Virus record (IMG/VR): IMGVR_UViG_3300006621_000005
Length of the DNA: 64,000 nucleotides
From: an uncultured virus (IMG/VR IMGVR_UViG_3300006621_000005)
Taxonomy: Duplodnaviria; Heunggongvirae; Uroviricota; Caudoviricetes
Direction: 5' to 3' (one strand)
Shown: one piece after another, positions 5,127 through 51,640 of the stretch
Layout of the letters: the number at the start of each line of letters is the position of its first letter
How positions within the stretch are numbered: position 1 is the first letter of the stretch
Notes under the pieces: generated by a model
What the model was told of the DNA's origin: nothing
What the model saw: the letters and a program-made list of their open reading frames with translations, nothing else
The model's database searches: none
Position numbers and translations under genes: made by a program

Positions 5127-6826
5127 ATGTCGGTAACAATTCAAAAAGTAGTAGAATTTAATGGTGATCTAGATCAGCTTCCAGAAGGAACTGACAGATA
5201 TACCTGGACTGCAACATGGACATCTGGTGGTAGTGGCTGGGTGACAGCAACAGAGGTAGATACTAATATCTGGCAATTTGAAGTGGAAGATTGGAATACA
5301 GGTGCATCAGGTGAAGTTAGATCAGTAACTTATGAAGTAAATCATTTTCAAGCATCAATATACACTGATGACCCTGGTTTGAGTAAAAGTTTTACGATTA
5401 CGCAACATGCTGACGCAAACGGTACTGGAAATGTGACAACGACTACAGCTGCACCAACAACTACAACTGCAGCTCCAACGACAACAACGACTACAGTTGC
5501 ACCAACAACTACAACTGCAGNNNNNNNNNNNNNNNNNNNNNNNNNNNNNNNNNNNNNNNNNNNNNNNNNNNNNCAACGACTACAGCTGCACCGACAACCC
5601 AATATGTACCGCCGACATATACAGTTACATATAACTCAAATGGTGGTAGTGGTAGCACGCCTCAATCAAGTGGTCAATTACCAATTACAATAAGAAACAA
5701 CGGTTTTACACCACCTAATGGTAAAACATTCCAAAATTGGGCTAATGGTTATACTGGTGGAAATACTACATACGCAGAAGGTGCATCATATAACACTGCC
5801 GCAAACGTAACTCTTTACGCAATTTGGGATTGGACATTTGAAGGTGTAATTAATTACAATGCGAATGGAGGCGTTGGTAGTTCGGGCGCTACAACATATA
5901 ACTCAGGTCATACTACTAGAACACTTAATACAGGTGGATTTACTAGATCTGGATATACTTTAACCGGTTGGGTGGTCCCAGGGTCGACCCCTCAGACGTA
6001 TACCTTAGGTGAAACAATAACCATTGGTTCGGGTAATTTCTCAGGTGGTACTACAACAATGTTCGCAGAATGGACTCCAATTCCAACGACAACGACTAGT
6101 GCTCCACAAGTATTTTATTTTAGAGAAGCTCAAGAATGCCTACCGCTAGGAGATGGGTCAAACTATATTATTAGGTCAACTGCATCAATGTCCAGCTATG
6201 TTGCTTGTGCAACCAATAATCCAAATATGCCGGATCATCCTTATGAATTTAATGGCCTTCAATATACAGGTGATGAGAACGAAAATTTTGAATTTACATT
6301 CTCATACCCAATGATGCCAAGCGAAAATTGTGGGTGTATTTTAGCAGGTGAATTAATTCTAATGGAAGACGGTACATCTAAGAAAGTAGAAGATGTTGTT
6401 GTCGGAGATAGAGTTAAAGGTATTACATTACCTGGCTTATCATTAGAAGAAGACTCTTGGAAAACATGGAGTTCTGACGATGTTAACTTTACATCAGCTA
6501 ATACTGTTACTGAAGTTAAGTCTATTCAAGCTGAGGTATTCCATACTGCATTTAACTTGATATTTAATACAGGCTCATTAAAGGTAACTGGAGAACACCC
6601 TGTCTTAACTAAAAGAGCAGATGGAAGCGTTTTATTTGTACCTGTTAGAGATTTAGTAGAAGGTGATGCTGTTAGATATTTCCCTTCTAATTCATGGGAA
6701 ACACTTACATCAATCGAAACGTTAGAAAATAACACACTTATGTCATATAACTTAGATGCTGAAGCAGTAGATAATTATGTAGCAGGTGGTATTATTGTAC
6801 ATAACACAATAGGCGAGGAGAAATAA
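5127..6826 (+). CDS. adhesin-like virion protein: BACON-like domain, Thr-rich linker, two Listeria-Bacteroides repeats, C-terminal Hint domain (one gene across gap 5521-5573)
   Basis: After the gap the frame of the 5972 ORF is open from 5576 (TTTAAPTTQYVPPTYTVTYNSNGGSG...FQNW...VTLYAIW...YNANGG...GYTLTGW...MFAEW); ends CILAG...TGEHP...IVHN-TIGEEK. Confidence 0.85.
5434..5600 (+). repeat. Thr-rich TTTTAAP coding tandem repeat
   Basis: Repeated ACAACKACWRCWGCWCCA-type units flanking the assembly gap. Confidence 0.9.
6335..6805 (+). other. Hint (intein-like) domain without endonuclease, C1...HN/T+1
   Basis: Block A CILAGELILMEDG, block B VTGEHPVL, blocks F/G SYNLDAEAVDNYVAGGIIVHN. Confidence 0.92.
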
Positions 6827-6852
6827 GATTAATGGCGGCGTACAGTTAACAC

Positions 6853-6860
6853 GATATATA
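6853..6860 (+). promoter_or_regulatory. GATATATA putative late promoter
   Basis: Intergenic, 30 nt before ATG 6883. Confidence 0.7.
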
Positions 6861-6882
6861 ATAAAAATAGAATAAAGTCAAA

Positions 6883-8880
6883 ATGGCATCAACAATTCAA
6901 AGATCAGTTACTTATACAGGAACTAATACAACATCAAATCCAAATTTTACATGGGTTAATGTAGATGGTGTATCATGGATTACAAGATCTGATACACAAA
7001 CTGCTGGTACATCAGACTTTTCTATTCAAGATAATGACACTGGCGGAACTAGAACATCTCAATGGGAAGTAAGACACTGGAACTGGGTTAATGATAATAC
7101 ATTAGTAGATAGTTTTACAATTACACAAACTGGAGATGGCTCAGTTACTACAACGACTGCAACTCCAACGACTGCAACTCCAACGACAACGACTACAGCT
7201 GCGCCAACGACAACAACGACAACTGCAGCTCCAACGACGCAGGCTCCAGTAAATTATACACTTACATTAAGTAGTGGAACTAGTGGTGCACAGGCAGTTC
7301 AATTTACTGAGGCAACTCCAAACAGTCAATCGATTAACTATACACAGTCTCCTAATAGTGGAACGCCGGCAGTGTTAGTAGATAGTTTACCAGCATGGTT
7401 AACTTCTGGAGGTATTACTGGCAGTGCAATTCAATTATCCCTGAATCCGGATTCCTCAACGTATCCAGCTGATTCTGTAGGATTCAGTATGACATATCGA
7501 CATGGAGATGCTCCAGCTGGTCAAGGTGAAGACGAACTTTACGTAAGCTTCGTTGCAGCTCCTGATAACTCTGTTTTAGTCACGTCTACTAACGTAACTG
7601 CTGTATCTGAAGTTTCAAATGGTGAGGGTGGAAGCACATACTCAGATGATAACTCTGCTAATTCTGCTAATCAGTCGGTAACATATACAGTGTCTTTAGA
7701 TCCTGATGTTACTTTAGATTCATCAGACGTATACTGGTCTACTTCATTACCTTCAACATCTGGACACCAAGCGTCCCCAACTCCTTATTGGGCAACTGCT
7801 TTAACAATAAACAACACGCCTAGTTCTGGCCAAGCTCAAATATCTTACTCTCATGTAGATCCAAATGCATCAACTGGTGGTAATCTATCAAACAAAAATG
7901 CTCCATTAACAGAAGAGCAGGCAGGAACACAATCGGCAAGCCCAAGCCCACAACCTACTAATCAAAGATATGTAATTATTACACATCCAGATGATACTTC
8001 TCACTGGGTTGCAATTCTAGTAACAGCTCCAACAGCCTCGATTACAACTACAACTACCAACCCTGTGTATAATTTTGAATTTACAAGTGTACTTCCAAAT
8101 ACTCTAGTCGGTGGTGGGACAGTAAACGCTAATTTCAATTGGAACGGACCTTCAAACATAGACGAGCAAAATAATGGTATTTACACATATTTCACCGTAG
8201 AAAACCCAAGCTCTCCTGCTAGTTCATCTATTAGCAATGTTAGTGTAACTAATGGAACAGTAACAGTCACAGTTAACGAGGGTGCTAACAACTCTAATGG
8301 CGGTGATACTTTAACTATTAATTTTAATGCAGGTAATAGTTTCACATTGGATCCTGCTAGTATAACCGGTATTGACTTCTCATGGGCACCATGTCACGTA
8401 GAAGGCACTGTGATGAATTTAGCTGACGGTACAACTAAACTAGTAGAAGATCTGCAAGTGGGTGACGTTCTAGCTTCTTATGATATTATAGGGTTAGGTG
8501 ATGATGAAACAACATCACCTTGGGAAGAATACTCAAGCCAACTTAATCAATTCTCAGCTAGCTCAAGTACTGCAACAGTTATGAGTGTAATTGCAGGTCA
8601 ACACACTTCGTATAGAAACTTTAATAACGGTTTAACAAAGGTAACTAGTGAACACCCTATCCTAGTGAAAACTACAGGTAATGATATTCTATTCAAACAG
8701 GCAATTGACGTTCTAGTTGGAGATTCATTCTACACTGGAAGCGGATGGTTAGAGATAACCAGCAATGAGTTGATTAGGGAAACTGTTAACACATACTCAA
8801 TTGACGTAGAAACTGAAGATGTCTATATGGCTGATGGTATATTATTCCATAATGTCCCACCTCAACAAAAAATTGAGTAA
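6883..8880 (+). CDS. adhesin-like virion protein: BACON-like domain, Thr-rich linker, beta-rich domains, C-terminal Hint domain
   Basis: N-terminus paralogous to the 5127 protein (TIQ...WIT...F.I.D..TG..R......H......SFTITQ); ends CHVEG...TSEHP...LFHN-VPPQQKIE. Confidence 0.88.
   Translation: MASTIQRSVTYTGTNTTSNPNFTWVNVDGVSWITRSDTQTAGTSDFSIQDNDTGGTRTSQWEVRHWNWVNDNTLVDSFTITQTGDGSVTTTTATPTTATPTTTTTAAPTTTTTTAAPTTQAPVNYTLTLSSGTSGAQAVQFTEATPNSQSINYTQSPNSGTPAVLVDSLPAWLTSGGITGSAIQLSLNPDSSTYPADSVGFSMTYRHGDAPAGQGEDELYVSFVAAPDNSVLVTSTNVTAVSEVSNGEGGSTYSDDNSANSANQSVTYTVSLDPDVTLDSSDVYWSTSLPSTSGHQASPTPYWATALTINNTPSSGQAQISYSHVDPNASTGGNLSNKNAPLTEEQAGTQSASPSPQPTNQRYVIITHPDDTSHWVAILVTAPTASITTTTTNPVYNFEFTSVLPNTLVGGGTVNANFNWNGPSNIDEQNNGIYTYFTVENPSSPASSSISNVSVTNGTVTVTVNEGANNSNGGDTLTINFNAGNSFTLDPASITGIDFSWAPCHVEGTVMNLADGTTKLVEDLQVGDVLASYDIIGLGDDETTSPWEEYSSQLNQFSASSSTATVMSVIAGQHTSYRNFNNGLTKVTSEHPILVKTTGNDILFKQAIDVLVGDSFYTGSGWLEITSNELIRETVNTYSIDVETEDVYMADGILFHNVPPQQKIE
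8392..8853 (+). other. Hint (BIL-like) domain, C1...HN/V+1
   Basis: CHVEGTVMNLADG, VTSEHPIL, TYSIDVETEDVYMADGILFHN; +1 residue is Val, not Cys/Ser/Thr. Confidence 0.92.
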
Positions 8881-8919: not shown

Positions 8920-9588
8920 ATGGCTAAAAAAATACTATCATTCGAAGAATATCAAGTTCAGTTAAAGGCTGGGCAAGATAATGTAGATACTACCGAAGAA
9001 GTAGAAAACGAAGAGTGCCCATGTGGCACTGACGAAGAAGGCAATTGCTTAGAGTGCGAAGAAGGTACTGAAGCGCCTGCTGAAGAAATAGAAGACGAGG
9101 ACGATGATTCTGACGACGATACTGATGATGTTGAAGACTCTGATGACGAAGACGATTCTGATGATGAAGACGAAGATGACGACGAAGACGATGATGACGA
9201 AGACGAAGACGATGATGAAGAAGAAGATGAAGAGTCTGATGAAGAAACAGGTGAAGAAGAGGTTGCAGAAGAACCAGCAGCAGAAGGAGAAGCAGAAGTG
9301 CCAGCAACAGTAGAAGAAATGCTAGTTGAAGGTTACGCAAAAGTAAAAGAAGCTGCATGTGCCTATGAAAAAGACGAATACCAAGACCACACATTAGAAA
9401 TGTACATGAAAGAGAATGCTGCTTTAGTAGCAACTCTTGCTGCAAAAGCAATGGAAGAAGGTTATAGTGAAGTTAAAGAAACAGAATTAACTCAAGAAAT
9501 GTATGAGGCTCATTGTAATGAAATGAAAGAGGCTTATGCTAAAAAAATCGATGAGTTAAAAGAAACTTACGGTGCTGGAAAAGAATAA
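8920..9588 (+). CDS. highly acidic protein, putative head-internal/scaffold-like
   Basis: MAKKILSFEEY leader, CPC...CLEC, long poly-D/E tract, helical C-terminus. Confidence 0.75.
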   Translation: MAKKILSFEEYQVQLKAGQDNVDTTEEVENEECPCGTDEEGNCLECEEGTEAPAEEIEDEDDDSDDDTDDVEDSDDEDDSDDEDEDDDEDDDDEDEDDDEEEDEESDEETGEEEVAEEPAAEGEAEVPATVEEMLVEGYAKVKEAACAYEKDEYQDHTLEMYMKENAALVATLAAKAMEEGYSEVKETELTQEMYEAHCNEMKEAYAKKIDELKETYGAGKE

Positions 9589-34617: not shown

Positions 34618-36526
34618 ATGGCAACTCCATTAGTAAGAATACCACAACCGCAGGGCGGCACGATGTATGCTTTTGCTTCAGCAGCAAGAGATATTACTAG
34701 AGCATTTAATAGCGCTGACATCAATTTTGAGTTTAGTAAATTCGCTTTACTAGACTTACCTGATTTTACAGACTCTGTTAATGGTTCTAATACTATCGAN
34801 NNNNNNNNNNNNNNNNNNNNNNNNNNNNNNNNNNNNNNNNNNNNNNNNNNNNNNNNNNNNNNNNNNNNNNNNNNNNNNNNNNNNNNNNNNNNNNNNNNNN
34901 NNNNNNNNNNNNNNNNNNNNNNNNNNNNNNNNNNNNNNNNNNNNNNNNNNNNNNNNNGGTGCAATTGATTTTAGACCAACTGACTCTAATGAGTCTTCTA
35001 CAGGAGCTTATGCTGAGAACGATAACGCGATCTTAGGTGGCTCGAACTACGATAAAGTAGTAAAGTACTTAGGTAGTATTGACGCAGAGAACGACGTAGC
35101 ATATCAAGGCAATACTTATCATGAAGTTTATATTAACGTGCCAACAGCGGTAGGTTATACGCCTCTGGTATTATTTGAACCAACAGACTATAATACGTCT
35201 GCAACTAAACTTTATTTAGATGCAAATAATACTAATGTTGAAGGTAGAGAGGGGCAAACACACCCTGATCCAAATATTGACTTATTACCTATAGTAGATG
35301 CTGGTTCAACAGCTAATACTGCAGCTTACTATGATATTCAAACTAATGCTACAAACTCAGTTCAAATTAACTGGGATACGGCTTCTTATGAGCCAATTCA
35401 AAATAATCCAGATGTTCAATCACTACTGGATTATGCAAAGACTGGACAACAGTTCAGATTTAATGCCGTTTTAGTTTATTACGATTTATATAGTGCTTCT
35501 ATTCCTGCGAATAGAGCAACAAACCTGTATGGTATCTTAATCTTAGATGATATTACAGATGCTTATGGGCCTGGATCTAAAATCCACGAACAAATTAAGT
35601 TTAAGCCAAATGAAGTTACTGGTTTAAATGGTAATGCATTCTCGTTAAAATTAAATCTTAAATTTAATTCATCACTAGATAACGTAGGTGTTGAGACAAG
35701 TGTAAATGATTTTACTACTTTCTCAATGGATCTATTTATGGACACAACGACCGCGTTAGAAAATGCAACCGATCTATTATTACAGGCTAATAATAGATAT
35801 AGTAAAATTGTAGAAAGATTAGACTCTTTAGAGAATATTATTCTAGGTACAGCACAAGCTGCTGCACTTGAGGGTAGAATTAAAGAGTTAGAAGATGACT
35901 TTACAGCATCATCTTTACAACTACAAGATTCAAACGCATTATTAAGTTTAATTAATAATGCACATACAAAAATTAATCAGTTAATTGATGGTACAATTCC
36001 AGTAGAGTTACAGTATAATACAGATGTAATCTTTGCAGGTAAAGGTACTAATGTTGATAAATCAATTGCTGGTAAAATTAAGGTTAATAACTCTGTCGAG
36101 GGCTATGTGGTAAACGATGTATTCCAATGGGATATTGCATCTGGTGTAGTAAGTGGTAGCATACTAGGAGGTACTAATCTATTTGATAATTCAAACTCTA
36201 ATATTAATGGTGTTTGGACTAAATTAAATTCTTATAGTAATAGATTAAGCTTAAAGAATAAATTAAGTGCCGATCCACTAAATGGAAACCTAAATATATA
36301 TGTTGACGATTCAGTTACAGGTTGGACAAAGGGACAATCTTTTAAAATTGCATTTGATACTATTGATGTAGATGGTAACAATATTAAAATTTGGACAAAC
36401 AAATCAGGTGGCTGGCAAAATATTACAGATATTGACCCATCACAATTACTAACGAATAAACCATACATTGAACTGGTATGTACAGATCCAGTTAACTTTG
36501 TATTTGAAGTAGATATTTTAAGATAA
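34618..36526 (+). CDS. structural protein (single gene across gap 34800-34957)
   Basis: MATPLVRIPQ start, open frame after gap, central coiled coil. Confidence 0.7.
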
Positions 36527-40271: not shown

Positions 40272-43200
40272 ATGGCAAATATAAGTTTTCAACTTAATAC
40301 TACAACAGGATTTACAACTGCAGCAGGTGCAATAGCAAACTGGGGAACCGGTACTGTTATTGATGCTTGGGCTGATACGGGAGGGCCTGATCTTGCCAAT
40401 GGAGAAACGGTTTATCAAAATAATGATGAAAATCCGGATGCAGCTTCAGGTACTTTAAGTGTTCCGTTTGTAGGGAATGCAACTGACTTTTTTGCATTTC
40501 GAAAACAAGATAATACTATTGCTGCGGTTCAAATAGATGCAGCAGGTTTAGTTAGCGCACTTACGACAACGACTACGACTACAAGTAGTACGACTACGAC
40601 ACTACCACAATTTACATGTTCTGACGCTAATGTGTCGATACAGCCTGGTGCAGTCGGCGACCCAGTTTCGGCAACGGTAGATGAAGGCATAGTAGATTCT
40701 ATTACACCTAATACATATCAGCTAGGGAGCACAACTTATGTTGTTGATGTTGAAATACCTGCTGGATATTATGATGAAGGTAATACAATAATCTGTTCAG
40801 TTAATGCAACAGGCACAACGACAACTTTAGCTCAAGCGATTGCTTGGGCCAATGATACCCAATATAATGCTCCTGCCGGCGCATCTAATAGTCTTAGAAC
40901 TTTTACAATTACAAATAACTCAACTGCGTTCGGTGTGAGTAATATTGTCCCTAATCCTAACACGGTCAATTGGATTTCAACTAACGTATCTTCAACTGTA
41001 TCTGGTGGTAGTATTGACTTTGTTATTGCCGCCAACCCAACCGCTAATGATAGAACACAAGCGTTTACATTAGAACACCCAGAGAATGGTACTGTAACTT
41101 CTACAAGTTTAACAATTTACCAAACCGGTGGTAATAACCTTCCAGTAGCTCCTGATTTTACTAGGACAATGATTGAGAATGGTACTCCAATAACTTTAAA
41201 TTTTGCTAGCGGTAGTGGTTGGGGAGTTGGCGCGGGCCAACAGAGTAATGTATCTGATGCTGAAGATAGCTTTGGTAACGGACTAACTATTGAAATGATT
41301 AGCGTACCACCGAATGGTAATATTCAGGATGCAAATGCACAGGGGACAAATTTAACGGCAGGTGCTGTTTTAACTGGAAATTCACCTTCTATAATATATA
41401 CGCCTAACCAGGATTATACAGGTACTGATACCTTTTCATATAAAGCTGTAGATAGTGACGGTGGCGAATCTACAGGAATTATTACGGTTACCGTCAGCGA
41501 GCCACAAAATCAGCCACCAGTTCCTGGAGATGACTTATATTCTATTAATGGATATGGTAGTACTAGTATATCAATTCAAAAAGATCTTGCTTCAGCTGGT
41601 TCAACAGATGATAATGATAACCCGGCACTTCTAACGTATACTTTATGTGATAATACAGGTGGTCCACTAACTGAAGCTCAAGTTGCTGCAAGTTTACTGC
41701 TTGGTGACTTTGAAGTTAACCAAGGTGTAGGTGCTTTTACATTTACTTATACAAAAAAGAGTAGTGTTAATTTAACACCTAATGATAGTACTCAAGACGA
41801 GTATTTTTATTACAAGGTAACAGATCAAAATGGTGCAACATCAAGTGGTGTGGGTACAATTACATTAAGAGTTGTTGCACCTGGTAATAATCCTCCAACG
41901 TTTTCAAATACTACGTTTAATGCTACTTTAGATCAATGGAGTAGTACAGGTGGTACGGCTTCTGCTTCTGACTCCAATACTGGCGATACATTAACATGGA
42001 GTATTGTATCAGGGCCAACATCAGCGAATGGCACTTCTAATCCTGGGTCTTTAAATTTAAATCCTCAAACAGGCGAATGGCAATATGAGGCTAGCTATAA
42101 TGTAACTCAAGCAGATACAATTACGTTTCAAATACAGGTTTATGATGGGTATGGATATGCAGCGACACCATATACTGCGCAAATAAACATTACCCCAACT
42201 GCCGCAATCTTAATAAAGTATTCTGCGTTCGTAACAAACTCAGACGAAGCGTGTTCAGCAACTAGAAATAATAATGGTTATTTAGATGCAACTAGTGGAA
42301 ATACCAACATAGCTAGTTTAACACCAGGTGATATAATATACTTGGATGCTGGTTTTAATACACCGCTTGTAGCTTCAAATTTAGCCGCTCGTTGGTTATC
42401 GGTTTCACCTGCTACTGGTGGAGATGCTAAAGCAATACAACTAGATACAACCACTTCAGGTAAAATAGAAACTATTGTAGAGTGTCAAGTTAGTTTAGGA
42501 AACGCATGGGAACTAATAGTTAACTTTGATGAAGATGTAAATGATTTATGTGCAGGAACTTATGGGTACGGAGGTCAAACTGTTTGGCAGAATGTTTTAA
42601 ATCCAGGAGCGGGTACTGTAACTTTAAATGATGTTGTACAGGCCGGCGGTCAAATATTTACTGATGAGGTTATAGCAAATACATATCTTAGTAATTCTGC
42701 ACCTGCTGAGTTTACAGCGTTAACAGGTTACTATAACGATAGTGCATCAAGTGGTGATAATAAATACTTTGAGTTTCAACAAGGTGTTTGGGTAGAAGCA
42801 AGTGAAGGTTACGCACAAGACTGTCCAGAATTAATAAAATTCCAAACATACGATGTAGGTGTTTACTATAATGCAGTAGATCCTATTAGAATTGATAATG
42901 TTTGTTTAGCTGATACTGGTGATTTAGTTTTTGCTAAACTTTATTTTAGAGCTAACCAAGAAGACTTAGTACAGAATTTATCGGAAGGTGATAAACTATT
43001 ATACATATTACAACATAATCTAGTACCTTTTACTTCATTAGAGGCTGCAAACCAGGTTGATTACACTTTATCTTGGCCAAGTACTACGTTCTTAGCTAGT
43101 AAAGTTTCTAATGGAAACTATTCATTAGATGCAGCTAGATACTTTACTGTTTGGGAAAACTATAACTCAAGTGGTTACACTGGTAACTATTCATGGAAGG

Positions 43201-46200
43201 GTGTAGTTCAAAACGATACAGATTTATTACAAGGTAGCACTGGTAACGCTAGTACTGCAGATACTATTACAATTTTAGGTACATGTAGTACTCAGTTTGA
43301 AAGACCTGCTGGTTCTTTAACATTTGACATAGGAACGCAATTGGCCTCTAGAGAAAATGTATTTTATGCATTTTTATCATGTGTTGCAAGATTCCAAGAC
43401 GGATCTCCTTACTGGAATTTATACATAGTAGACGGTTTACATAAAGATACTGATAATGGTAGTTCTTATATAAAAGAATTACATGAGGTTATTGGTGATA
43501 GAGGAATAATAAACGGGCCTACTGTATTAGAATGCATGTCAATGCAGCATAAAATTCTTGCTGTTAATATTGAGGATGCTCAAGATATACTAAATAATAT
43601 ATCAGAATATAATAATGATTCTATTAGAACAGTTCAGGTTAATCCAGTTGATTTAGGGCTATCCTCTGCGGCTGTTATTAATTATGGATATACTGATTGT
43701 GGAGGTTGTTTGATGCAAACAGAGCTGCCCCAAACATACACACTAGCGACGGTTGATGATGCTGATATTATTAATAAATCAATTCCTAATTTTGACTTAG
43801 AAAAGAATTATAGTTTAGATGATGTTTCTAAACCCTTATTAAGAACAAACCCCAAATTATCAACTAACGCGAAATTAGTAGTTAATAGTGGTGGTAAAAT
43901 GTATATTGAGTCAATAGAGGCTACAAAAGAGTTAGCGTCAGTTGAATATAAGAAATGGGCAGTTAATAAAGACGGAGAATGGGCATACGATCTACAAAGA
44001 TTCTTTAAAAATACTAAAACTCCTGCAGACCAAATATACAAAGTAAAAGAGTCTTACTCAAACTTTGCAGTACAAGAGACTTTTGAAAATCAAATAGAAG
44101 AGGATTACCATTATGGTACAGTCTATAACTATTCTAAGATTCATGATGAAGACTTTAGAATGATGGCTCCTATTTGGTTAGATAAAACGATACCGAATAA
44201 ATTTGTAATCTTTAGAGTAAAAGATCCTATCGGTACTCTAGATTTTGATGTGCAATCTAATTTAGATAATATTAAAGAGATTTTAAAGAATAGTGAAATT
44301 GTAAAAACATTTGATTTATCTAGAGATTCTGAATTAGGTACGTATATTAGAAACCACATACAATCTGAGTCATTCCCTAAAACTCCAATTACAATGAACT
44401 TTGATAAATTACAAAGGTCTTCATTTAATGGTATTGATTTAGAAAACGGAGGATTTACTTCTAAAGGAGAATATTTAGATAGCGACTTTATTAGTCAAGA
44501 TTCTACATTAATAGATGCTAATGAATTAATTACAAGTGGGTTCCAAAGAAATAAATTAGCATGTGCTAATTTAATAAACCTAGAGTTCTTATTTAATGAT
44601 GATGCTGCTACTGATTATTCTGTTAGTAGATATTTTGGTTTATATGTAAATGATATTGATTCAGGCTATGGTACATTAGATTCTGCAAATACAGGAAGGC
44701 TTAAGTTTAAAACTATTAATTCATATATTAATAATGAAAATTCATCTGCTATTCCACCATATAAGTTAGTATCTGAAACTCCTATATTAGGGTACGCTGC
44801 AACATCTGATAAATTCTATAAAATATCTCCAAAGACTGTATATAACCCTGGTAACCTAGAGTTAAACGTTGAAGATTCTAGAAATTCAATAGCTTCAGAA
44901 ATTAAATTAGCTGAAACTGGAAATTCAATCGATATAAAAGTTGATGGAAAACCAGGTAGCGACTTTGTAAAAGTAAGTATCTTAGATAATCCTGCGGTAA
45001 ATGATGGATTTGCAATATTCCCTTCAAAAGAACAGACTTATAGACTTAAGTTTACTAGGTTAATTCCACAACAAGCATTGGGACAAGAGAGTTGGAAATT
45101 TACAATAGTTAATCCTACTGATGGCCAACTTTTAGATTTCGGACCTATTTACATTGACGCTGGTGGTATACAAGGCGTTGCTAATTATATTCAGGCTAGA
45201 ATTGGAGAAGAGGATCAATTTACTGGTAATAAATTATACCCTGAACTTTACAATAATTTAAATATTGAGATAGAGTCAGATAGATCTATTATATTATCAG
45301 AAAAAAGAGCTACATTAAAGCCACTACAGCCTGATTTTATCCCATGGCAATCAAACGGTGTTAATAATTCTATTGTTAGAATTGAAGAATTACAAGTACC
45401 TTATGATATTGATAATAATACTTTCTTTGCATTAGATATACCAGCGGGTCAATTTGGTGGAGTTAATTTCTCTAACCAAGGAAGCATACCTCAGGTTACG
45501 AGTGCAATAGTAAAATCTATTAACTCTATAGATAATGGGTTTACAGCATTATCATACGATGGAGCTGACCACTTCTATATTAAAACAGATGTACAAGGTT
45601 ATAGACTATTATCTGCTGGTATTGCAATTCCTAATGCGAATGCTAATCAGTGGATTAGTGTTGATTCAAATAATCTAGATGTTAATAATTTACTTAGATT
45701 AGATATTAATGATTGTAATAGCCCAGAGAATTGTAATACAATTAATAATAGTTCAATATATTATTTTAATGGTGGTAATTCAACTGGTAAGTCAATATTA
45801 GTGACATTAGATTCTGCTAGTGATATTAACGTAAATGATTATATTAACACAAAATCTAGAGGTATCTATAATAAGGTTATCGATATTGTAGATGATATTG
45901 AAAGACTACCTTTACAATATAAGAAAATTGTATTAGAAAAACCTAATACGATTGATGCTGGTGAAATTAAAACCTATGCAGATAATTTAGTTAAAGTAGG
46001 TTTATTTTCTGCGTTTGATATTCATGATATGAATTTTGATTTTTATGATGTTTCAAATTCAGACTTAAAGGAATTAGTTTATGAGACTCCGGTTAATATA
46101 GCATACGAACCTGAACAAGATGATTCAAATGACATATACCCATTTGGTAGTAAAGAAAATACAGAATATACATTAGACCCAATTGATTACTTTAGTGGAT

Positions 46201-48774: not shown

Positions 48775-50847
48775 ATGGCCATTAATATACAAGAAATACT
48801 ACACCCTAGTGATTCGGACGCTATTAAGTTTGAGAAGATAAACTATAACTTTGATCAAATTGTAGCGAATGGCGGAGGTCCTTCTGGTCAGAAGGGTACC
48901 CAAGGTATACAAGGTACCAAGGGTAATACTGGTAGCAAGGGGCAAAAAGGTGATGTTGGACCACAGGGTTTAACAGGTGCAACAACCTCACCATGGCATG
49001 TTATTAATGTCAACCCTAACTCAGAAAATGAGACATATTCTATATTAAAGCCTAAAATTACAACTGATAATTTACACCCTACTATATTTTTAGGAGATCA
49101 GACATTTAACGAAAATACACCGGCTGATGGTTGGACCTCTTTAAGAGCTACGTTAACTATTGGTAAACATGCACAAGGCGTACAAAATGGTTTAGACTCT
49201 GACGAATATTTAAGACTATGGCACGGTGCTGATAATGGTGGTAAAAATGTATCTATTGATATATCTTCTAGTAACGAACCAGATGGTTCTGTTAAGTATC
49301 TTTTTGGAAAATCATTTGATTTAGATGCTGCGGTTAATGTAGAGTTTAATGCTGCTTTTGATAAATTTTCTATTGCAGATAACTCATCATTTAAAGTACC
49401 TTCAAATAATACATTATCCCCAGAGCCAGGTCTTATTAGATATAACTCTAGTACTAATGTATTTCAAGGTGGTATTTTAGATGGTAATGGAAATGTTAGT
49501 TGGGTAGACTTCTGTATGGCTCCTTGTGGACAAGGTGGTGGAGGTTACAGTATTAATATTGAACCAGATGGTGATCTAATGGTTAATCAATATGGTACTC
49601 CTTATACGATAATTGATCCGTCTATTAATTTAATCCCGCCTACTGATAGTTACGAGTATGATAATACCGGTAACGAATGGTCTGGTGTACAAGTTACAAC
49701 AACAACAACGAACGCTCCAAACACATATCAATTAACGTTCCCTAATGGAGATAATAGTGCATCTATTGCACAAGCAGGTGGTACAGTTAGTATCGACTAC
49801 TTAGCACAAGTTAATAACACCGGTGATTTCACACTGACAGTACAACCAACATCTAGTCAATCATGGGCTGCAGTTGATGCATATTTTGATACAGTAGATC
49901 TTTTAATTAGTCCAAACAATACTTATAGTACTAGAAGTGCAACGATTACGTTAGTACACCCACAAGATAGTGGTACAACTGCGACAATTACAATTTCACA
50001 AGCTGCGTTAGCTGCAACAACTCAGGCTCCTGCAACGACTCAGGCTCCTGCAACGACTCAAGCTCCTACAACGACTCAAGCTCCGCTACCAACATATACA
50101 GTTGGAATGGTGGCCCTACAAGTTAGCGATGGTGTAGAAGGTGCTCAGGCAAATATGACTTGGTCGAACAATGGTCAAGTAGTTTCATTTACCCCTACAA
50201 CATTACAAGAGGGTAGTAGCACATATACTTTAACTATTACTGTACCTAGTGGATATAGTAACACAGGACAACAAGTGGTTGCAACAACTACAGCGGTCGG
50301 AGAAGAAGTCTATAAAATTGTTTACGATCCTAATGGAGGTACGCTTGGTAGTGGATCGAGCGGAATACCAGATACAGTAGGTGTACACCCATTATCAGTA
50401 TCTGCTAATACATCTTATGTCCGTGATGGCTATACATTTAATGGATGGAATACTAGTTTTTATGGAACTGGAACATCGTATAACACGGGGTCACAGCCTG
50501 CAGTATCAGTATATAATGATACTGATGGAATTTATGATAAAGTGACTCTTTATGCGAAATGGGCATCAAGCGCAACAACTACAACTACTACAGCACCAAC
50601 TAACAATTGTGTGCAGTATGTAATAACTAGTAACCAAGTAGGAAGTGAATGTAACATAGCGATATGGCAAGAATGTGGCGGAAGTGTTCAAATGTCATCT
50701 CCGATTGGTCAGGCTAACTCGAGTAACTGTGGTGGTTATGGTCAAAATGCACTTACAGTATGTGCTGAAATTAACGAAAATTACCCGAACGGACCAGTAT
50801 GGCAAAGTGGTGGAGGTTCTATTACATACAATAGCCCATGTTACTAA
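48775..50847 (+). CDS. tail fibre/adhesin: anchor motif, collagen-like repeat, BACON, TTQAPA repeats, Listeria-Bacteroides repeat
   Basis: KINYNFDQI; 12 G-X-Y triplets; SW...ISPNNTYSTRSATITL...ITISQ; YDPNGG...RDGYTFNGWNT...VTLYAKW. Confidence 0.85.
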   Translation: MAINIQEILHPSDSDAIKFEKINYNFDQIVANGGGPSGQKGTQGIQGTKGNTGSKGQKGDVGPQGLTGATTSPWHVINVNPNSENETYSILKPKITTDNLHPTIFLGDQTFNENTPADGWTSLRATLTIGKHAQGVQNGLDSDEYLRLWHGADNGGKNVSIDISSSNEPDGSVKYLFGKSFDLDAAVNVEFNAAFDKFSIADNSSFKVPSNNTLSPEPGLIRYNSSTNVFQGGILDGNGNVSWVDFCMAPCGQGGGGYSINIEPDGDLMVNQYGTPYTIIDPSINLIPPTDSYEYDNTGNEWSGVQVTTTTTNAPNTYQLTFPNGDNSASIAQAGGTVSIDYLAQVNNTGDFTLTVQPTSSQSWAAVDAYFDTVDLLISPNNTYSTRSATITLVHPQDSGTTATITISQAALAATTQAPATTQAPATTQAPTTTQAPLPTYTVGMVALQVSDGVEGAQANMTWSNNGQVVSFTPTTLQEGSSTYTLTITVPSGYSNTGQQVVATTTAVGEEVYKIVYDPNGGTLGSGSSGIPDTVGVHPLSVSANTSYVRDGYTFNGWNTSFYGTGTSYNTGSQPAVSVYNDTDGIYDKVTLYAKWASSATTTTTTAPTNNCVQYVITSNQVGSECNIAIWQECGGSVQMSSPIGQANSSNCGGYGQNALTVCAEINENYPNGPVWQSGGGSITYNSPCY
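48877..48984 (+). repeat. collagen-like Gly-X-Y repeat
   Basis: GPSGQKGTQGIQGTKGNTGSKGQKGDVGPQGLTGAT. Confidence 0.9.
50014..50085 (+). repeat. 18-nt tandem repeat encoding ATTQAP x4
   Basis: GCAACRACTCARGCTCCT units. Confidence 0.9.
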
Positions 50848-50859
50848 ACCCTTAAAATT

Positions 50860-51640
50860 ATGAAAGACAAAATAAAAAATATANNNNNNNNNNNNNNNNN
50901 NNNNNNNNNNNNNNNNNNNNNNNNNNNNNNNNNNNNNNNNNNNNNNNNNNNNNNNNNNNNNNNNNNNNNNNNNNNNNNNNNNNNNNNNNNNNAATTTTAA
51001 AGCAGCTCAAGACTCAGTTACAATACTAAGAAATGATAATGGCGATCAACTTGCTCAAATTAGATCTTATGAATTTGATTTATCAAATATGGAATCTAGC
51101 CAAGCTAAGTTAACGAAGAAGTATCAAAAAGCGTTAGCTTTAAACAAAGATTTAAAAGAGGTTAATTCATTAATATCAGCTAACTTAGAAATTAAAGATA
51201 GTTTAGATGTAACTACTACAACTGAGACTATAGACACGACAACTACTAAAGTTACATTTGCATCATCAGAAGATTTTGGTAATGGTAACTCTAGGAAATT
51301 AACAGGGTTTTCTACATTTAAATATGAATTTGAACAATTTAAAGTATTAGAAACTAAATTTGAGTTAACACAAACTTTAAGCCTGATGGCTGCAATTGAG
51401 AATGTAGATGGAGCTGATAGATTAAAGTTATCAACAAGCTACCCTGGATTAGAGATTAAAGATATTGAAAATATTAATTTAGTAAATAGTAGATTGAATA
51501 GAAGAGACCAAAAAAAATCTAGATGGTTAGTTGGTTTTGGAGTTGGATATGGTATTAACTTAAATAACGATCAAGTAATTAGTACTGGGCCTTCAATAGG
51601 TGTGGGACTTTACTGGTCACCTAAATTTTTACAATTTTAA
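50860..51640 (+). CDS. coiled-coil protein with C-terminal amphipathic beta-strands (possible lysis/outer-membrane protein); N-terminus in gap
   Basis: ATG 50860 (MKDKIKNI), gap 50884-50992, then open frame; ends WLVGFGVGYG...PSIGVGLYWSPKFLQF. Confidence 0.6.

What the first reader, a model, noticed from the sequence alone, without database searches (positions are those of the whole stretch)
5127..8880. Tandem adhesin-like virion proteins terminated by Hint auto-processing domains
Seen: two paralogous genes with architecture BACON-like N-domain, Thr-rich stalk, variable beta-domains, Hint domain, then only 6-8 residues. Both Hints keep Cys1, the TxxH block B and terminal His-Asn, lack a homing endonuclease and are divergent from each other. 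Known: Hint domains form an N-terminal thioester used for splicing (inteins), cleavage (BILs, pretoxin Hints) or conjugation to an external nucleophile (Hedgehog). Inference: with almost no C-extein, these are not selfish inteins but domesticated modules that activate the adhesin C-terminus for covalent attachment to the virion, a partner protein or a small molecule, or act as cleavable chaperones. Best candidate for an undescribed system in this window.
Basis: partly seen in the sequence, partly recalled or inferred. Interest (0 to 1): 0.85.

Follow-up and report, generated by a model that had tools for sequence, protein, structure and literature searches.

The report
Lysine-tailed self-processing Hint caps on phage fibres
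Two neighbouring fibre-like genes of an uncultured large phage end in a small intein-like self-processing domain followed by a few residues that always include a lysine, which suggests, but does not prove, that the domain removes itself while joining the fibre's end to that lysine.

Summary
Gene A (5127-6826, interrupted by a masked N run) and gene B (6883-8880) share an N-terminal Ig-like domain, a Thr-rich stalk and variable beta-domains. Both end in a mini Hint domain (Cys1, TxEHP, His-Asn) followed by 6 or 8 residues.

The Hint fold is confirmed (pLDDT 90). Its closest solved relatives are intein-like BIL domains, not canonical inteins: Tetrahymena BUBL BIL2 (profile E 1e-12, Z 19.3) and C. 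thermocellum BIL4.

The domain belongs to a large, apparently undescribed phage clade. It is always C-terminal, is the best-conserved part of otherwise shuffled fibre-like proteins, and sits in tail-fibre modules, including those of cultured jumbo phages.

The new point is the tail. 144 of 145 non-redundant tails contain a Lys, usually at +5 or +6, while the +1 residue is rarely a nucleophile. BIL2 is reported to form a Lys isopeptide.

Best reading: a domesticated type-A-like BIL module that removes itself, with the thioester probably captured by the tail Lys. No processing has been shown. This is a new variant of a known kind, and the scan met similar phage Hint caps before on other DNA.

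The parts
5127..6826 (+). Gene A: fibre/adhesin-like protein of about 568 aa. It is read in two frames in the window because of the masked run 5521-5573.
   Evidence: The public protein P0203 joins both parts in one ORF.
5127..5390 (+). Gene A N-terminal Ig-like domain, homologous to that of gene B.
   Evidence: A profile of the B family without A hits this part at E 4e-14, 49 bits. It shares all 11 invariant columns of alignment A3.
5437..5600 (+). Gene A Thr/Ala/Pro-rich stalk (tandem repeats); includes the masked N run 5521-5573.
5618..6075 (+). Two Flg_new (Listeria-Bacteroides / InlB B-repeat) domains. The limits of the second are approximate.
   Evidence: Pfam PF09479, E 1.1e-10, 41.9 bits (cut-off 27), 2 stretches. 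Relatives found carry the same family.
6335..6805 (+). Hint domain A (157 aa): Cys1 at 6335-6337, block B TGEHP, terminal His-Asn.
   Evidence: (E 1.4e-52 to the family profile). It is 75% identical to the Hint of P0092, a 240-aa protein with an unrelated N-part.
6806..6823 (+). Tail A, TIGEEK; the conserved Lys is the last residue (6821-6823).
6883..8880 (+). Gene B: fibre/adhesin-like protein, 665 aa.
6883..7140 (+). Gene B N-terminal Ig-like beta-sandwich domain (possibly BACON-like).
   Evidence: AF2 model: pLDDT 82, six strands. Best VIA match is 3zmr_B residues 57-129, Z 7.3, tied with other Ig-like folds. hhalign against BACON segments gives P 5e-4. No Pfam hit at E<=5.
7141..7245 (+). 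Gene B Thr-rich stalk.
7246..8391 (+). Gene B variable middle region; probably tandem BACON/Ig-like beta-domains.
   Evidence: Only 25-76% identical among relatives. The Atlas structure neighbours are BACON-domain proteins, TM 0.45/0.58, on a low-confidence model; this is a lead only. No Pfam hit.
8392..8853 (+). Hint domain B (154 aa): Cys1 at 8392-8394, TSEHP, His-Asn.
   Evidence: AF2 pLDDT 90.4, pTM 0.86. Foldseek top hit 6y75_A, E 1.5e-9. VIA Z 19.3. Family profile E 2e-82.
8854..8877 (+). Tail B, VPPQQKIE; conserved Lys at +6 (8869-8871).
48775..50847 (+). Context: the window's collagen-repeat tail-fibre-like protein (690 aa) WITHOUT a Hint. Its N-terminal part is homologous to Hint-ended fibres of related phages, and it shares BACON and Flg_new modules with the A/B family.
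   Evidence: BLASTP against the Hint-ended L025 fibre: E 3e-48, 32% identity over 552 columns, starting at the N-terminus. Pfam: BACON 2.6e-6, Flg_new 1e-4, Collagen 2e-4. PHROGs tail fibre.

Best explanation
Genes A and B encode modular surface proteins (fibre or adhesin type) of a large myovirus. Each has a conserved N-terminal Ig-like domain, a Thr-rich stalk and variable beta-domains.

Each ends in a domesticated, type-A-like bacterial-intein-like (BIL) Hint domain plus a micro C-extein.

Proposed mechanism, all steps inferred:
1. Cys1 performs an N-S acyl shift. The last residue of the adhesin part (Gly in A, Pro in B) becomes a thioester.
2. The thioester is resolved by an amine of the tail. 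The most likely one is the epsilon-amine of the invariant Lys, as reported for the closest solved relative BIL2. The alternative is the alpha-amine freed by step 3, as proposed for type A BILs.
3. The terminal Asn cyclises and frees the Hint.

The net result is a mature protein without the 17-kDa Hint, carrying a short Lys peptide on its C-terminus. The module would thus be a removable C-terminal maturation cap. It occupies the same place in fibre genes as the self-cleaving intramolecular chaperones of other phages.

Shown here: fold, catalytic residues, conservation, position, context.
Not shown: any cleavage, any isopeptide, or presence in virions.
For: Fold and nearest relatives:
- Hint fold: AF2 pLDDT 90.4.
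- The best structural matches are BIL2 of Tetrahymena BUBL1 (Foldseek E 1.5e-9; VIA Z 19.3, rmsd 1.9, 139 residues aligned) and CthBIL4 2lwy (Z 17.3).
- The family profile against PDB sequences gives BIL2 1.4e-12 and 2lwy 1.8e-8, against 3e-6 for the best mini-intein.

Catalytic residues:
- Cys1, T.EHP and His-Asn are invariant in 30 of 30 diverse members.
- His-Asn is present in 133 of 133 single-Hint proteins held.

Position:
- The Hint is always terminal: 51 of 51 complete relatives and 145 of 149 non-redundant proteins with tails of 30 aa or fewer. In the IMG/VR loci it is the last domain of every complete ORF.

Tail lysine:
- 144 of 145 tails contain a Lys. The first Lys lies at +4 to +7 in 112 of them.
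- 101 of 102 tails of 10 aa or fewer contain a Lys, against 27% expected from composition and 106 of 224 control C-termini.
- 34 of 102 short tails end in Lys, against 22 of 224 controls.
- Otherwise the tails are only 0-50% identical.
- The +1 residue is V, A or I in 89 of 145, T or S in 20, and never C.

Selection and shuffling:
- The Hint is the most conserved region in 12 of 12 comparisons, at 59-97%.
- The Hint tree conflicts with the type of N-part.
- Gene A's Hint is 75% identical to that of an unrelated 240-aa protein.

Context:
- Relatives have collagen-repeat tail-fibre N-termini and lie in tail-fibre modules.
- The same holds in cultured phages: Erwinia phage pEa_SNUABM_35 gp105 ('virion structural protein') and Phage NCTB BN7874_132. 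Both have a Lys at +6.

Precedent:
- BIL2 forms an isopeptide, 'K[eNH2]-C-ter' (PMC8616854, section 2.4, passages read).
- The type A BIL mechanism is aminolysis of the thioester (PMC4031507, passages read).
Against: - No biochemical or proteomic datum exists for any member.
- The tail is modelled with low confidence (residues 167-170 below pLDDT 50), and no coordinates could be inspected, so whether the Lys can reach Cys1 is untested.
- The counts come from related sequences and are not independent events.
- One tail of 145 has no Lys (P0191). Four proteins have long C-terminal extensions of 35-223 aa.
- Hint-less proteins with the same N-domain exist (L064 5822-6748, L005 2645-4429), as does a Hint-less fibre in this window. 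The cap is therefore dispensable for some family members.
- Reviews say BILs give mainly cleavage products (PMC7664689), so plain cleavage may suffice.
- The BIL2 paper itself (Chiarini 2021) is not held. I know its result only through the CASP14 summary.
- Genes A and B lie outside the main tail module of the window (15.7-54 kb).
Confidence: 0.5

Rival explanations
1. Plain self-cleaving pro-domain. The thioester is simply hydrolysed (N-terminal cleavage) and the Hint leaves with its tail. The Lys and the acidic residues of the tail serve only solubility, folding or tuning of catalysis.
For: - BILs give mostly cleavage products (PMC7664689 and PMC4031507, passages read).
- The tails are rich in Glu and Lys overall: E 121 and K 103 of 710 residues in short tails.
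- The C-terminal position matches that of self-cleaving fibre chaperones.
Against: - N-cleavage alone needs neither the terminal Asn nor a tail, yet His-Asn is present in 133 of 133 and the Lys in 144 of 145.
- 34 of 102 short tails stop exactly at the Lys.
- The wider clade places the Lys at +1, the nucleophile position.
Confidence: 0.2
2. Trans-conjugation. The C-terminal thioester is passed to a Lys or other nucleophile on another virion protein, a host surface molecule or a small molecule, anchoring the adhesin covalently.
For: - BIL2 is reported to conjugate its N-extein to other proteins, ubl5 and Ras GTPase (PMC8616854).
- The architecture has a binding-type N-domain, a stalk and an activated C-terminus.
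Against: - The conserved N-domain with a variable distal part looks like the usual phage arrangement, with the N-terminus anchored and the distal part binding.
- An invariant cis Lys would compete with any trans acceptor.
- No conserved partner gene was identified; the neighbours differ between the two genomic positions.
Confidence: 0.15
3. Catalytically silent Hint retained in the mature protein as a structural or binding domain.
For: No activity has been shown. Hint-like folds can be recruited for binding: the weak AXH hits reflect the shared fold.
Against: The nucleophile, the block B Thr/His and the His-Asn are all invariant across a deep tree. This is hard to explain without catalysis.
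Confidence: 0.08
4. Ordinary (selfish) mini-intein inserted near the 3' end of the genes, splicing the 6-8-residue tail back on.
For: - Gene A has Thr at +1.
- Weak hits to intein models: Intein_splicing 1.4e-7, TIGR01445 0.012, TIGR01443 0.033.
Against: - All these hits are below the curated cut-offs.
- Gene B has Val at +1, and only 20 of 145 relatives have Ser or Thr.
- The host proteins are hypervariable while the Hint is conserved.
- The same Hint sits on unrelated N-parts.
- 21 of 21 relatives found through the N-part carry the Hint. No allele was found with the flanks joined.
Confidence: 0.03

Closest known systems
Type A bacterial intein-like (BIL) domains (Amitai 2003; Dassa 2004; CthBIL4, PDB 2LWY), as summarised in PMC7765530 and PMC4031507
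   Same: - Hint fold.
- Cys1, block B and C-terminal His-Asn.
- Usually no +1 nucleophile and no endonuclease.
- Located in variable regions of non-conserved extracellular proteins.
- The profile hits 2lwy at E 1.8e-8 and VIA gives Z 17.3.
   Different: - Here the domain is strictly C-terminal, with a 1-27-aa C-flank bearing an invariant Lys.
- The carriers are phage fibre-like proteins.
- The clade has no close relative in 185,579 species genomes; the best is 34% identity.
- I could not test type-A-specific motifs, because no such profile is at hand.
BIL2 of the Tetrahymena thermophila BUBL1 polyubiquitin-like locus (PDB 6TMM, 6Y75)
   Same: - Best match by sequence profile (E 1.4e-12) and by structure (Z 19.3).
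- Many phage relatives also have Gly-rich ...GGG|C junctions: 25 of 119.
- BIL2 is reported to make a Lys isopeptide with the N-extein C-terminus.
   Different: - BIL2 lies between two ubiquitin-like domains. Here there is no ubiquitin-like domain, and the C-extein is a 6-8-residue peptide.
- BIL2 is eukaryotic, these are phage proteins.
- Sequence identity is only 20-23%.
Hedgehog / Hog autoprocessing domains
   Same: A Hint at the C-terminal end of a secreted or surface protein, which activates the C-terminus of the N-terminal part as a thioester. Structural match 1at0, Z 16.9.
   Different: As recalled and per PMC7765530, Hog domains lack the terminal Asn step and carry a sterol/adduct-recognition region after the Hint. 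Here His-Asn is invariant and only a few residues follow.
C-terminal intramolecular chaperone domains of phage tail fibres and tailspikes (Peptidase_S74 type; recalled)
   Same: Same place in the gene: the last domain of a fibre, in tail-fibre modules. The proposed role is also the same: a self-removing maturation cap.
   Different: The fold and chemistry are unrelated. There is no S74 hit, and the fold is Hint.
Pretoxin Hint (PT-HINT, PF07591) of polymorphic toxins
   Same: A domesticated Hint shuffled among variable proteins. 8 of 30 members give weak PT-HINT hits.
   Different: PT-HINT precedes a C-terminal toxin domain that it releases. Here nothing but a short tail follows.

Membership tests
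Hint (Hedgehog/intein) superfamily | Hint fold | tested here: met
   AF2 pLDDT 90.4. 57 PDB matches at E<=1e-3; every row listed is a Hint domain. 81 chains at Z>=8, top Z 19.3.
Hint (Hedgehog/intein) superfamily | Block A nucleophile (Cys1) and block B Thr-x-x-His | tested here: met
   C9, T93, E95, H96 and P97 are invariant in 30 of 30 members. Both window genes keep them.
Type A BIL domain | Conserved C-terminal His-Asn | tested here: met
   H161 and N162 are invariant. 133 of 133 single-Hint proteins have it.
Type A BIL domain | No Cys/Ser/Thr nucleophile at +1 | tested here: met
   Gene B has Val. In the family, C 0, T 14 and S 6 of 145. Gene A is an exception, with Thr.
Type A BIL domain | Sits in variable regions of non-conserved proteins, not in conserved sites; no homing endonuclease | tested here: met
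   Middle regions are 25-76% identical against 59-97% for the Hint. N-parts are shuffled. The Hint is 150-157 aa.
Type A BIL domain | Type-A-specific sequence motifs / closest kinship to type A members | tested here: inconclusive
   The profile hits 2lwy at 1.8e-8 and BIL2 at 1.4e-12, better than mini-inteins at 3e-6 or weaker. No type A profile or tree with named BILs was available.
Type A BIL domain | Autocatalytic cleavage or splicing | not testable with these tools
   Needs expression and mass spectrometry.
Canonical (class 1) intein | Inserted in a conserved host protein with a functional C-extein; intein-less alleles with joined flanks | tested here: not met
   C-flank is 6 and 8 aa here, and 30 aa or fewer in 145 of 149. 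21 of 21 N-part relatives carry the Hint.
Canonical (class 1) intein | Reaches the curated score of intein models | tested here: not met
   Intein_splicing 31.8 bits against a cut-off of 35.8 for gene A; nothing for gene B. TIGR01445 16.6 against 24.5; TIGR01443 14.5 against 15.6.
Hedgehog/Hog-type Hint | Adduct-recognition region after the Hint; no terminal Asn step | tested here: not met
   Tails of 6 and 8 aa; His-Asn invariant.
BUBL-type BIL (BIL2) | Flanked by ubiquitin-like domains ending in Gly-Gly | tested here: not met
   No ubiquitin-like domain by Pfam. No RGG|C motif in any protein held. The -1 residue is Gly in A and Pro in B.
BUBL-type BIL (BIL2) | Isopeptide (Lys epsilon-amine to N-extein C-terminus) product | not testable with these tools
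   Only the conserved tail Lys speaks for it.
BACON domain (for the N-terminal domain) | Match to PF13004 / BACON fold | tested here: inconclusive
   No Pfam hit at E<=5. hhalign against two BACON segments: P 5e-4, probability 31%. The model is an Ig-like sandwich whose top VIA row is 3zmr_B 57-129, Z 7.3, tied with other Ig-like folds. That this 3zmr segment is a BACON domain is recalled, not shown by any search.
Phage virion / tail-fibre protein | Detected in virions, or homologous to a proven structural protein | tested here: inconclusive
   phrog_38766 'virion structural protein' matches only the Hint part. Relatives have collagen tail-fibre N-termini and lie in fibre modules. No proteomic data were seen.

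The most novel reading that the evidence does not exclude
The tail Lys is the built-in nucleophile of a large, unrecognised class of 'lysine-directed' Hint domains.

In the phage clade the Lys sits at +5/+6. In cellular and tandem-array relatives it sits at +1 (HN|K), the position where inteins have Cys, Ser or Thr.

These domains would perform an isopeptide-forming splice. The C-terminal carbonyl of the carrier would be joined to the Lys epsilon-amine, and the Hint would be expelled by Asn cyclisation. This would give phage fibres a covalently capped, branched C-terminus without ATP or any enzyme. It would also offer a natural scaffold for Lys-directed protein ligation.

The head-to-tail arrays (HN|K-Gly(n)|C) would then build short poly-isopeptide chains.

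One parallel, from recall and untested: the C-extein of BIL2 starts like ubiquitin (the PDB chain ends ..MQ), and ubiquitin's first Lys is residue 6.
Probability: 0.3. Interest if true: 0.85.

Novelty: new variant of a known kind. Interest (0 to 1): 0.62.

Why it matters
If the reading is right, a widespread group of marine and jumbo phages matures its fibre-like proteins with a domesticated intein relative, not with the known serine-type intramolecular chaperones. The reaction would also use a lysine as the acyl acceptor.

That would add a third natural outcome of Hint chemistry in prokaryotic viruses, beside splicing and cleavage: self-catalysed C-terminal isopeptide capping. It would also extend the single reported case, ciliate BIL2, to thousands of proteins. 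The profile finds 12,921 relatives at E<=1e-3.

It is directly testable with one expression construct and three point mutants.

In practice, a 150-residue domain that transfers a protein's C-terminus to a nearby lysine would interest protein engineers. For phage biology it would mark the true mature C-terminus of host-recognition proteins.

Tried and rejected
- **Window's genome:** no whole genome is held, so paralogues outside the 64 kb could not be counted. Five related records gave one or two Hint genes each.
- **T4 late-promoter motif TATAAATA** (recalled consensus): 6 matches against 13 expected, none at these genes. Timing of expression is therefore unknown. The sigma-70 and terminator scans were uninformative.
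- **N-domain:** the Atlas search gave nothing usable. Foldseek against PDB gave no match at E<=1e-3.
- **Phage tblastn with gene B:** only 6 records, all on the Hint part. No cultured close relative exists.
- **Literature:** seven searches and passages of phage genome papers showed only ordinary inteins in terminase, RNR and dCTP deaminase. None held a paper on C-terminal Hint domains of phage fibres or on a conserved tail Lys. Subscription journals are not covered.
- **Chiarini 2021 (BBA):** not held.
- **Selfish-intein reading:** rejected; see the rival explanations.
- **Sequencing-run tools:** not used. I did not try to read the masked stretch.

Full report
**What is there**

The window is part of a large myovirus. 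PHROGs find baseplate wedge and hub proteins, a tail-tube-like protein, a gp32-like SSB, a primase, a helicase and a dCMP deaminase. Nearly all genes are on the + strand at about 35% GC. Its baseplate wedge protein is closest to an uncultured huge phage (LR756500, 40% identity over the whole protein). More distant matches are Tenacibaculum jumbo phages and Sphingomonas phage PAU, at about 27%. A Bacteroidota host is therefore a reasonable guess, but only a guess. No whole genome is held.

Gene B (6883-8880) is one 665-aa ORF. Gene A starts at 5127 and is interrupted by a masked run of 53 N inside its Thr/Ala/Pro stalk. The reading frame differs before and after the run. A public protein of 568 aa (P0203) is identical to the 131 residues before the run and to 415 of the 416 after it. 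It has 21 residues between, where the window holds 56 nt. Gene A is thus almost certainly one intact gene, and the frame break comes from the masked repeat.

**Architecture**

The two N-terminal domains (about 90 aa) are homologous. A profile built from gene B's relatives without gene A hits gene A at E 4e-14, although pairwise BLAST alone is not significant.

The domain models as a six-stranded Ig-like sandwich, pLDDT 82. Its best structural match is residues 57-129 of the Bacteroides ovatus GH5 structure 3zmr, Z 7.3, tied with many Ig-like folds. I recall that segment to be a BACON domain. hhalign against two true BACON segments gives P 5e-4, while Pfam gives nothing even at E<=5. 'BACON-like' is therefore plausible but unproven.

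Stalks of Thr/Ala/Pro repeats follow. Gene A then has two Flg_new repeats, Pfam E 1e-10. Gene B has about 380 residues with no family. The Atlas model's neighbours for this part are tandem BACON proteins, which is a lead only.

**The Hint domains**

The C-terminal 157 aa (A) and 154 aa (B) are 32% identical, E 2e-23. Single-sequence searches are weak. Gene A scores below the cut-offs of the Pfam and NCBIfam intein models, and gene B hits none.

A profile of 30 diverse members (alignment A2) is clear against PDB sequences:
- BIL2 of the Tetrahymena BUBL1 locus (6TMM/6Y75), E 1.4e-12;
- the C. thermocellum bacterial intein-like domain 2LWY, 1.8e-8;
- mini-inteins from 3e-6 downwards.

The AF2 model of gene B's domain has pLDDT 90.4. 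Its best matches are again BIL2 and then 2LWY:
- BIL2: Foldseek E 1.5e-9; VIA Z 19.3, rmsd 1.9 over 139 residues;
- 2LWY: Z 17.3;
- mini-inteins and Hedgehog: Z about 17.

Cys1, the block B motif T-x-E-H-P and the terminal His-Asn are invariant in the alignment.

**A large phage family, always C-terminal**

A search with gene B's Hint found 53 metagenomic proteins of 365-1164 aa. All 51 complete relatives carry the domain at the very end.

IMG/VR gave 65 loci. In each complete ORF the Hint is the last domain, with tails of 5-22 aa.

The exhaustive profile search found 12,921 proteins at E<=1e-3 and 201 at E<=1e-30.

The close clade therefore seems viral.

BFVD holds similar phage models labelled only 'Hint domain containing protein', or labelled by other domains such as FN3 and collagen.

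**Not a selfish intein**

- Against 12 relatives, the Hint is always the best-conserved region (59-97%). The variable middle is 25-76% identical, and the tail is 0-50% identical.
- Gene A's Hint is 75% identical to that of a 240-aa protein with an unrelated N-part. It sits in a different deep clade from gene B's.
- On the Hint tree, the N-domain type and the collagen-fibre type each need at least 3 changes.
- All 21 relatives found through gene B's N-part carry the Hint. No allele with joined flanks was seen.
- Hint-less proteins with the same N-domain do exist, and they end in Gly/Ser-rich tails.
- The window's own collagen-repeat fibre (48775-50847; BACON, Flg_new) has no Hint. Yet its N-terminal part is homologous to Hint-ended fibres of related phages, E 3e-48.

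The Hint plus tail is thus a shuffled C-terminal cassette of fibre-like proteins.

**Context**

In relatives, the cassette sits at two genomic positions:
- as here, upstream of a dCMP deaminase-sized and a helicase-sized ORF, judged by ORF size and order;
- inside the fibre module, after a giant phrog_31887 protein.

One 233-aa member directly follows a 2255-aa long-tail-fibre-like gene.

In cultured phages, the Hint-ended protein lies among tail and tail-fibre genes. Examples are Erwinia phage pEa_SNUABM_35 gp105, annotated 'virion structural protein', and Phage NCTB BN7874_132. This supports 'fibre/adhesin-like'. It does not prove presence in virions.

**The tail lysine**

Among 149 non-redundant single-Hint proteins, 145 have tails of 30 aa or fewer.

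- 144 of those 145 contain a Lys. The exception is P0191.
- The first Lys is at +5 in 34 and at +6 in 55.
- Of 102 tails of 10 aa or fewer, 101 have a Lys. That compares with 27% expected at the domain's Lys frequency, and with 106 of 224 control C-termini from the same loci.
- 34 of 102 short tails end exactly at the Lys, against 22 of 224 controls.
- The two cultured-phage proteins also have a Lys at +6.
- The +1 residue is mostly Val, Ala or Ile, and never Cys.

These sequences are related, so the counts are not independent events. Even so, the Lys is almost the only conserved tail position.

In the wider clade the Lys sits at +1:
- 78 of 147 junctions in head-to-tail Hint arrays read HN|K-Gly(0-5)|C;
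- 45 of 82 Hint ends in cellular genomes read HN|K, and only 9 of 82 have a Lys at +4 to +7.

**Mechanism**

Two precedents bear on this, both read as passages.
- Type A BILs lack the +1 nucleophile. They are thought to ligate by attack of a free amino group of the C-fragment on the N-terminal thioester, with cleavage products dominating (PMC4031507, PMC7765530, PMC7664689).

The primary paper on BIL2 is not held.

An invariant Cys1, an invariant Asn and an invariant tail Lys are best explained together by the following sequence: thioester formation, capture by the tail Lys, and release of the Hint by Asn cyclisation. The result would be a self-removing cap that leaves a short peptide on the fibre's C-terminus.

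Everything beyond the presence and conservation of the residues is inference. Plain hydrolytic cleavage, trans-conjugation and a silent domain remain possible, and they are scored as rivals.

**Novelty**

The kind of domain is known: a BIL-type domesticated Hint. I found no paper on C-terminal Hint caps of phage fibres or on the tail Lys (searches; open-access library only).

This scan has met the same kind of thing before on other DNA:
- e1-5755656: tandem Hint-capped fibres of a giant phage, with type A BIL as the closest known family;
- e1-3145133 and e1-2302081: archaeal pilin-like proteins with GGG|C Hint ends, with BIL2 as the closest.

As listed, those notes do not mention the Lys.

I rate this a new variant of a known kind, of moderate-to-high interest because one simple experiment decides it.

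Noticed in passing
Proteins P0056, P0060, P0075, P0077, P0100, P0102 and others (one search hits): Head-to-tail arrays of up to about 10 Hint domains joined by micro-linkers HN|K-Gly(0-5)|C. 58 such multi-Hint proteins are among those held, and 78 of 147 junctions have a Lys at +1. Almost no extein lies between the domains. Their product and purpose are unexplained.
   Followed up: partly
Loci L075-L146 (genome contigs), e.g. L106, L108, L118, L105, L125, L131: In bacterial and archaeal genomes, 45 of 82 non-redundant Hint ends related to this family read HN|K. Several proteins stop right there (HN|K*, KL*, KI*, KT*). This may be a possible 'Lys +1' class of Hint domains, distinct from inteins, which have Cys/Ser/Thr at +1.
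   Followed up: partly
window 48775-50847: A collagen-repeat tail-fibre-like protein with BACON and Flg_new modules and no Hint. A masked N run (50884-50992) follows 37 nt after its stop codon. Related phages carry a Hint-ended fibre at the equivalent place.
   Followed up: partly
L064 5822-6748 and L005 2645-4429: Hint-less paralogues with the same N-terminal domain end in Gly/Ser-rich tails that resemble the poly-Gly linkers preceding Cys1 elsewhere. In L064 the next gene, 34 nt downstream, is a 240-aa Hint protein. This may be a split version of a gene-A-like protein.
   Followed up: partly
P0092, P0113, P0183 (about 235-240 aa): Small Hint proteins share a conserved N-terminus (MALQT.G.IS..DI..E.G...) unrelated to genes A and B. 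The Hint of one, P0092, is 75% identical to gene A's.
   Followed up: no
L058 6800-7498: A 233-aa protein made of a 65-aa N-part plus Hint lies directly after a 2255-aa long-tail-fibre-like gene. Phages often place a fibre assembly chaperone at that position.
   Followed up: no
window 8920-9588: A strongly acidic 222-aa protein with long Asp/Glu runs lies just downstream of gene B. ORFs of similar size (216, 224 and 208 aa) follow the Hint genes in L002, L005 and L064. Homology was not tested.
   Followed up: no
window 40272-48770: A giant 2832-aa protein (phrog_31887) contains weak copies of the A/B N-terminal domain (E 1.7e-4 at residues 208-289).
   Followed up: no
window 34618-36526: Another masked run (34800-34957) separates ORFs in different frames (34618-34968 and 34781-36526). 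As in gene A, this may be one gene broken only by the masking.
   Followed up: no
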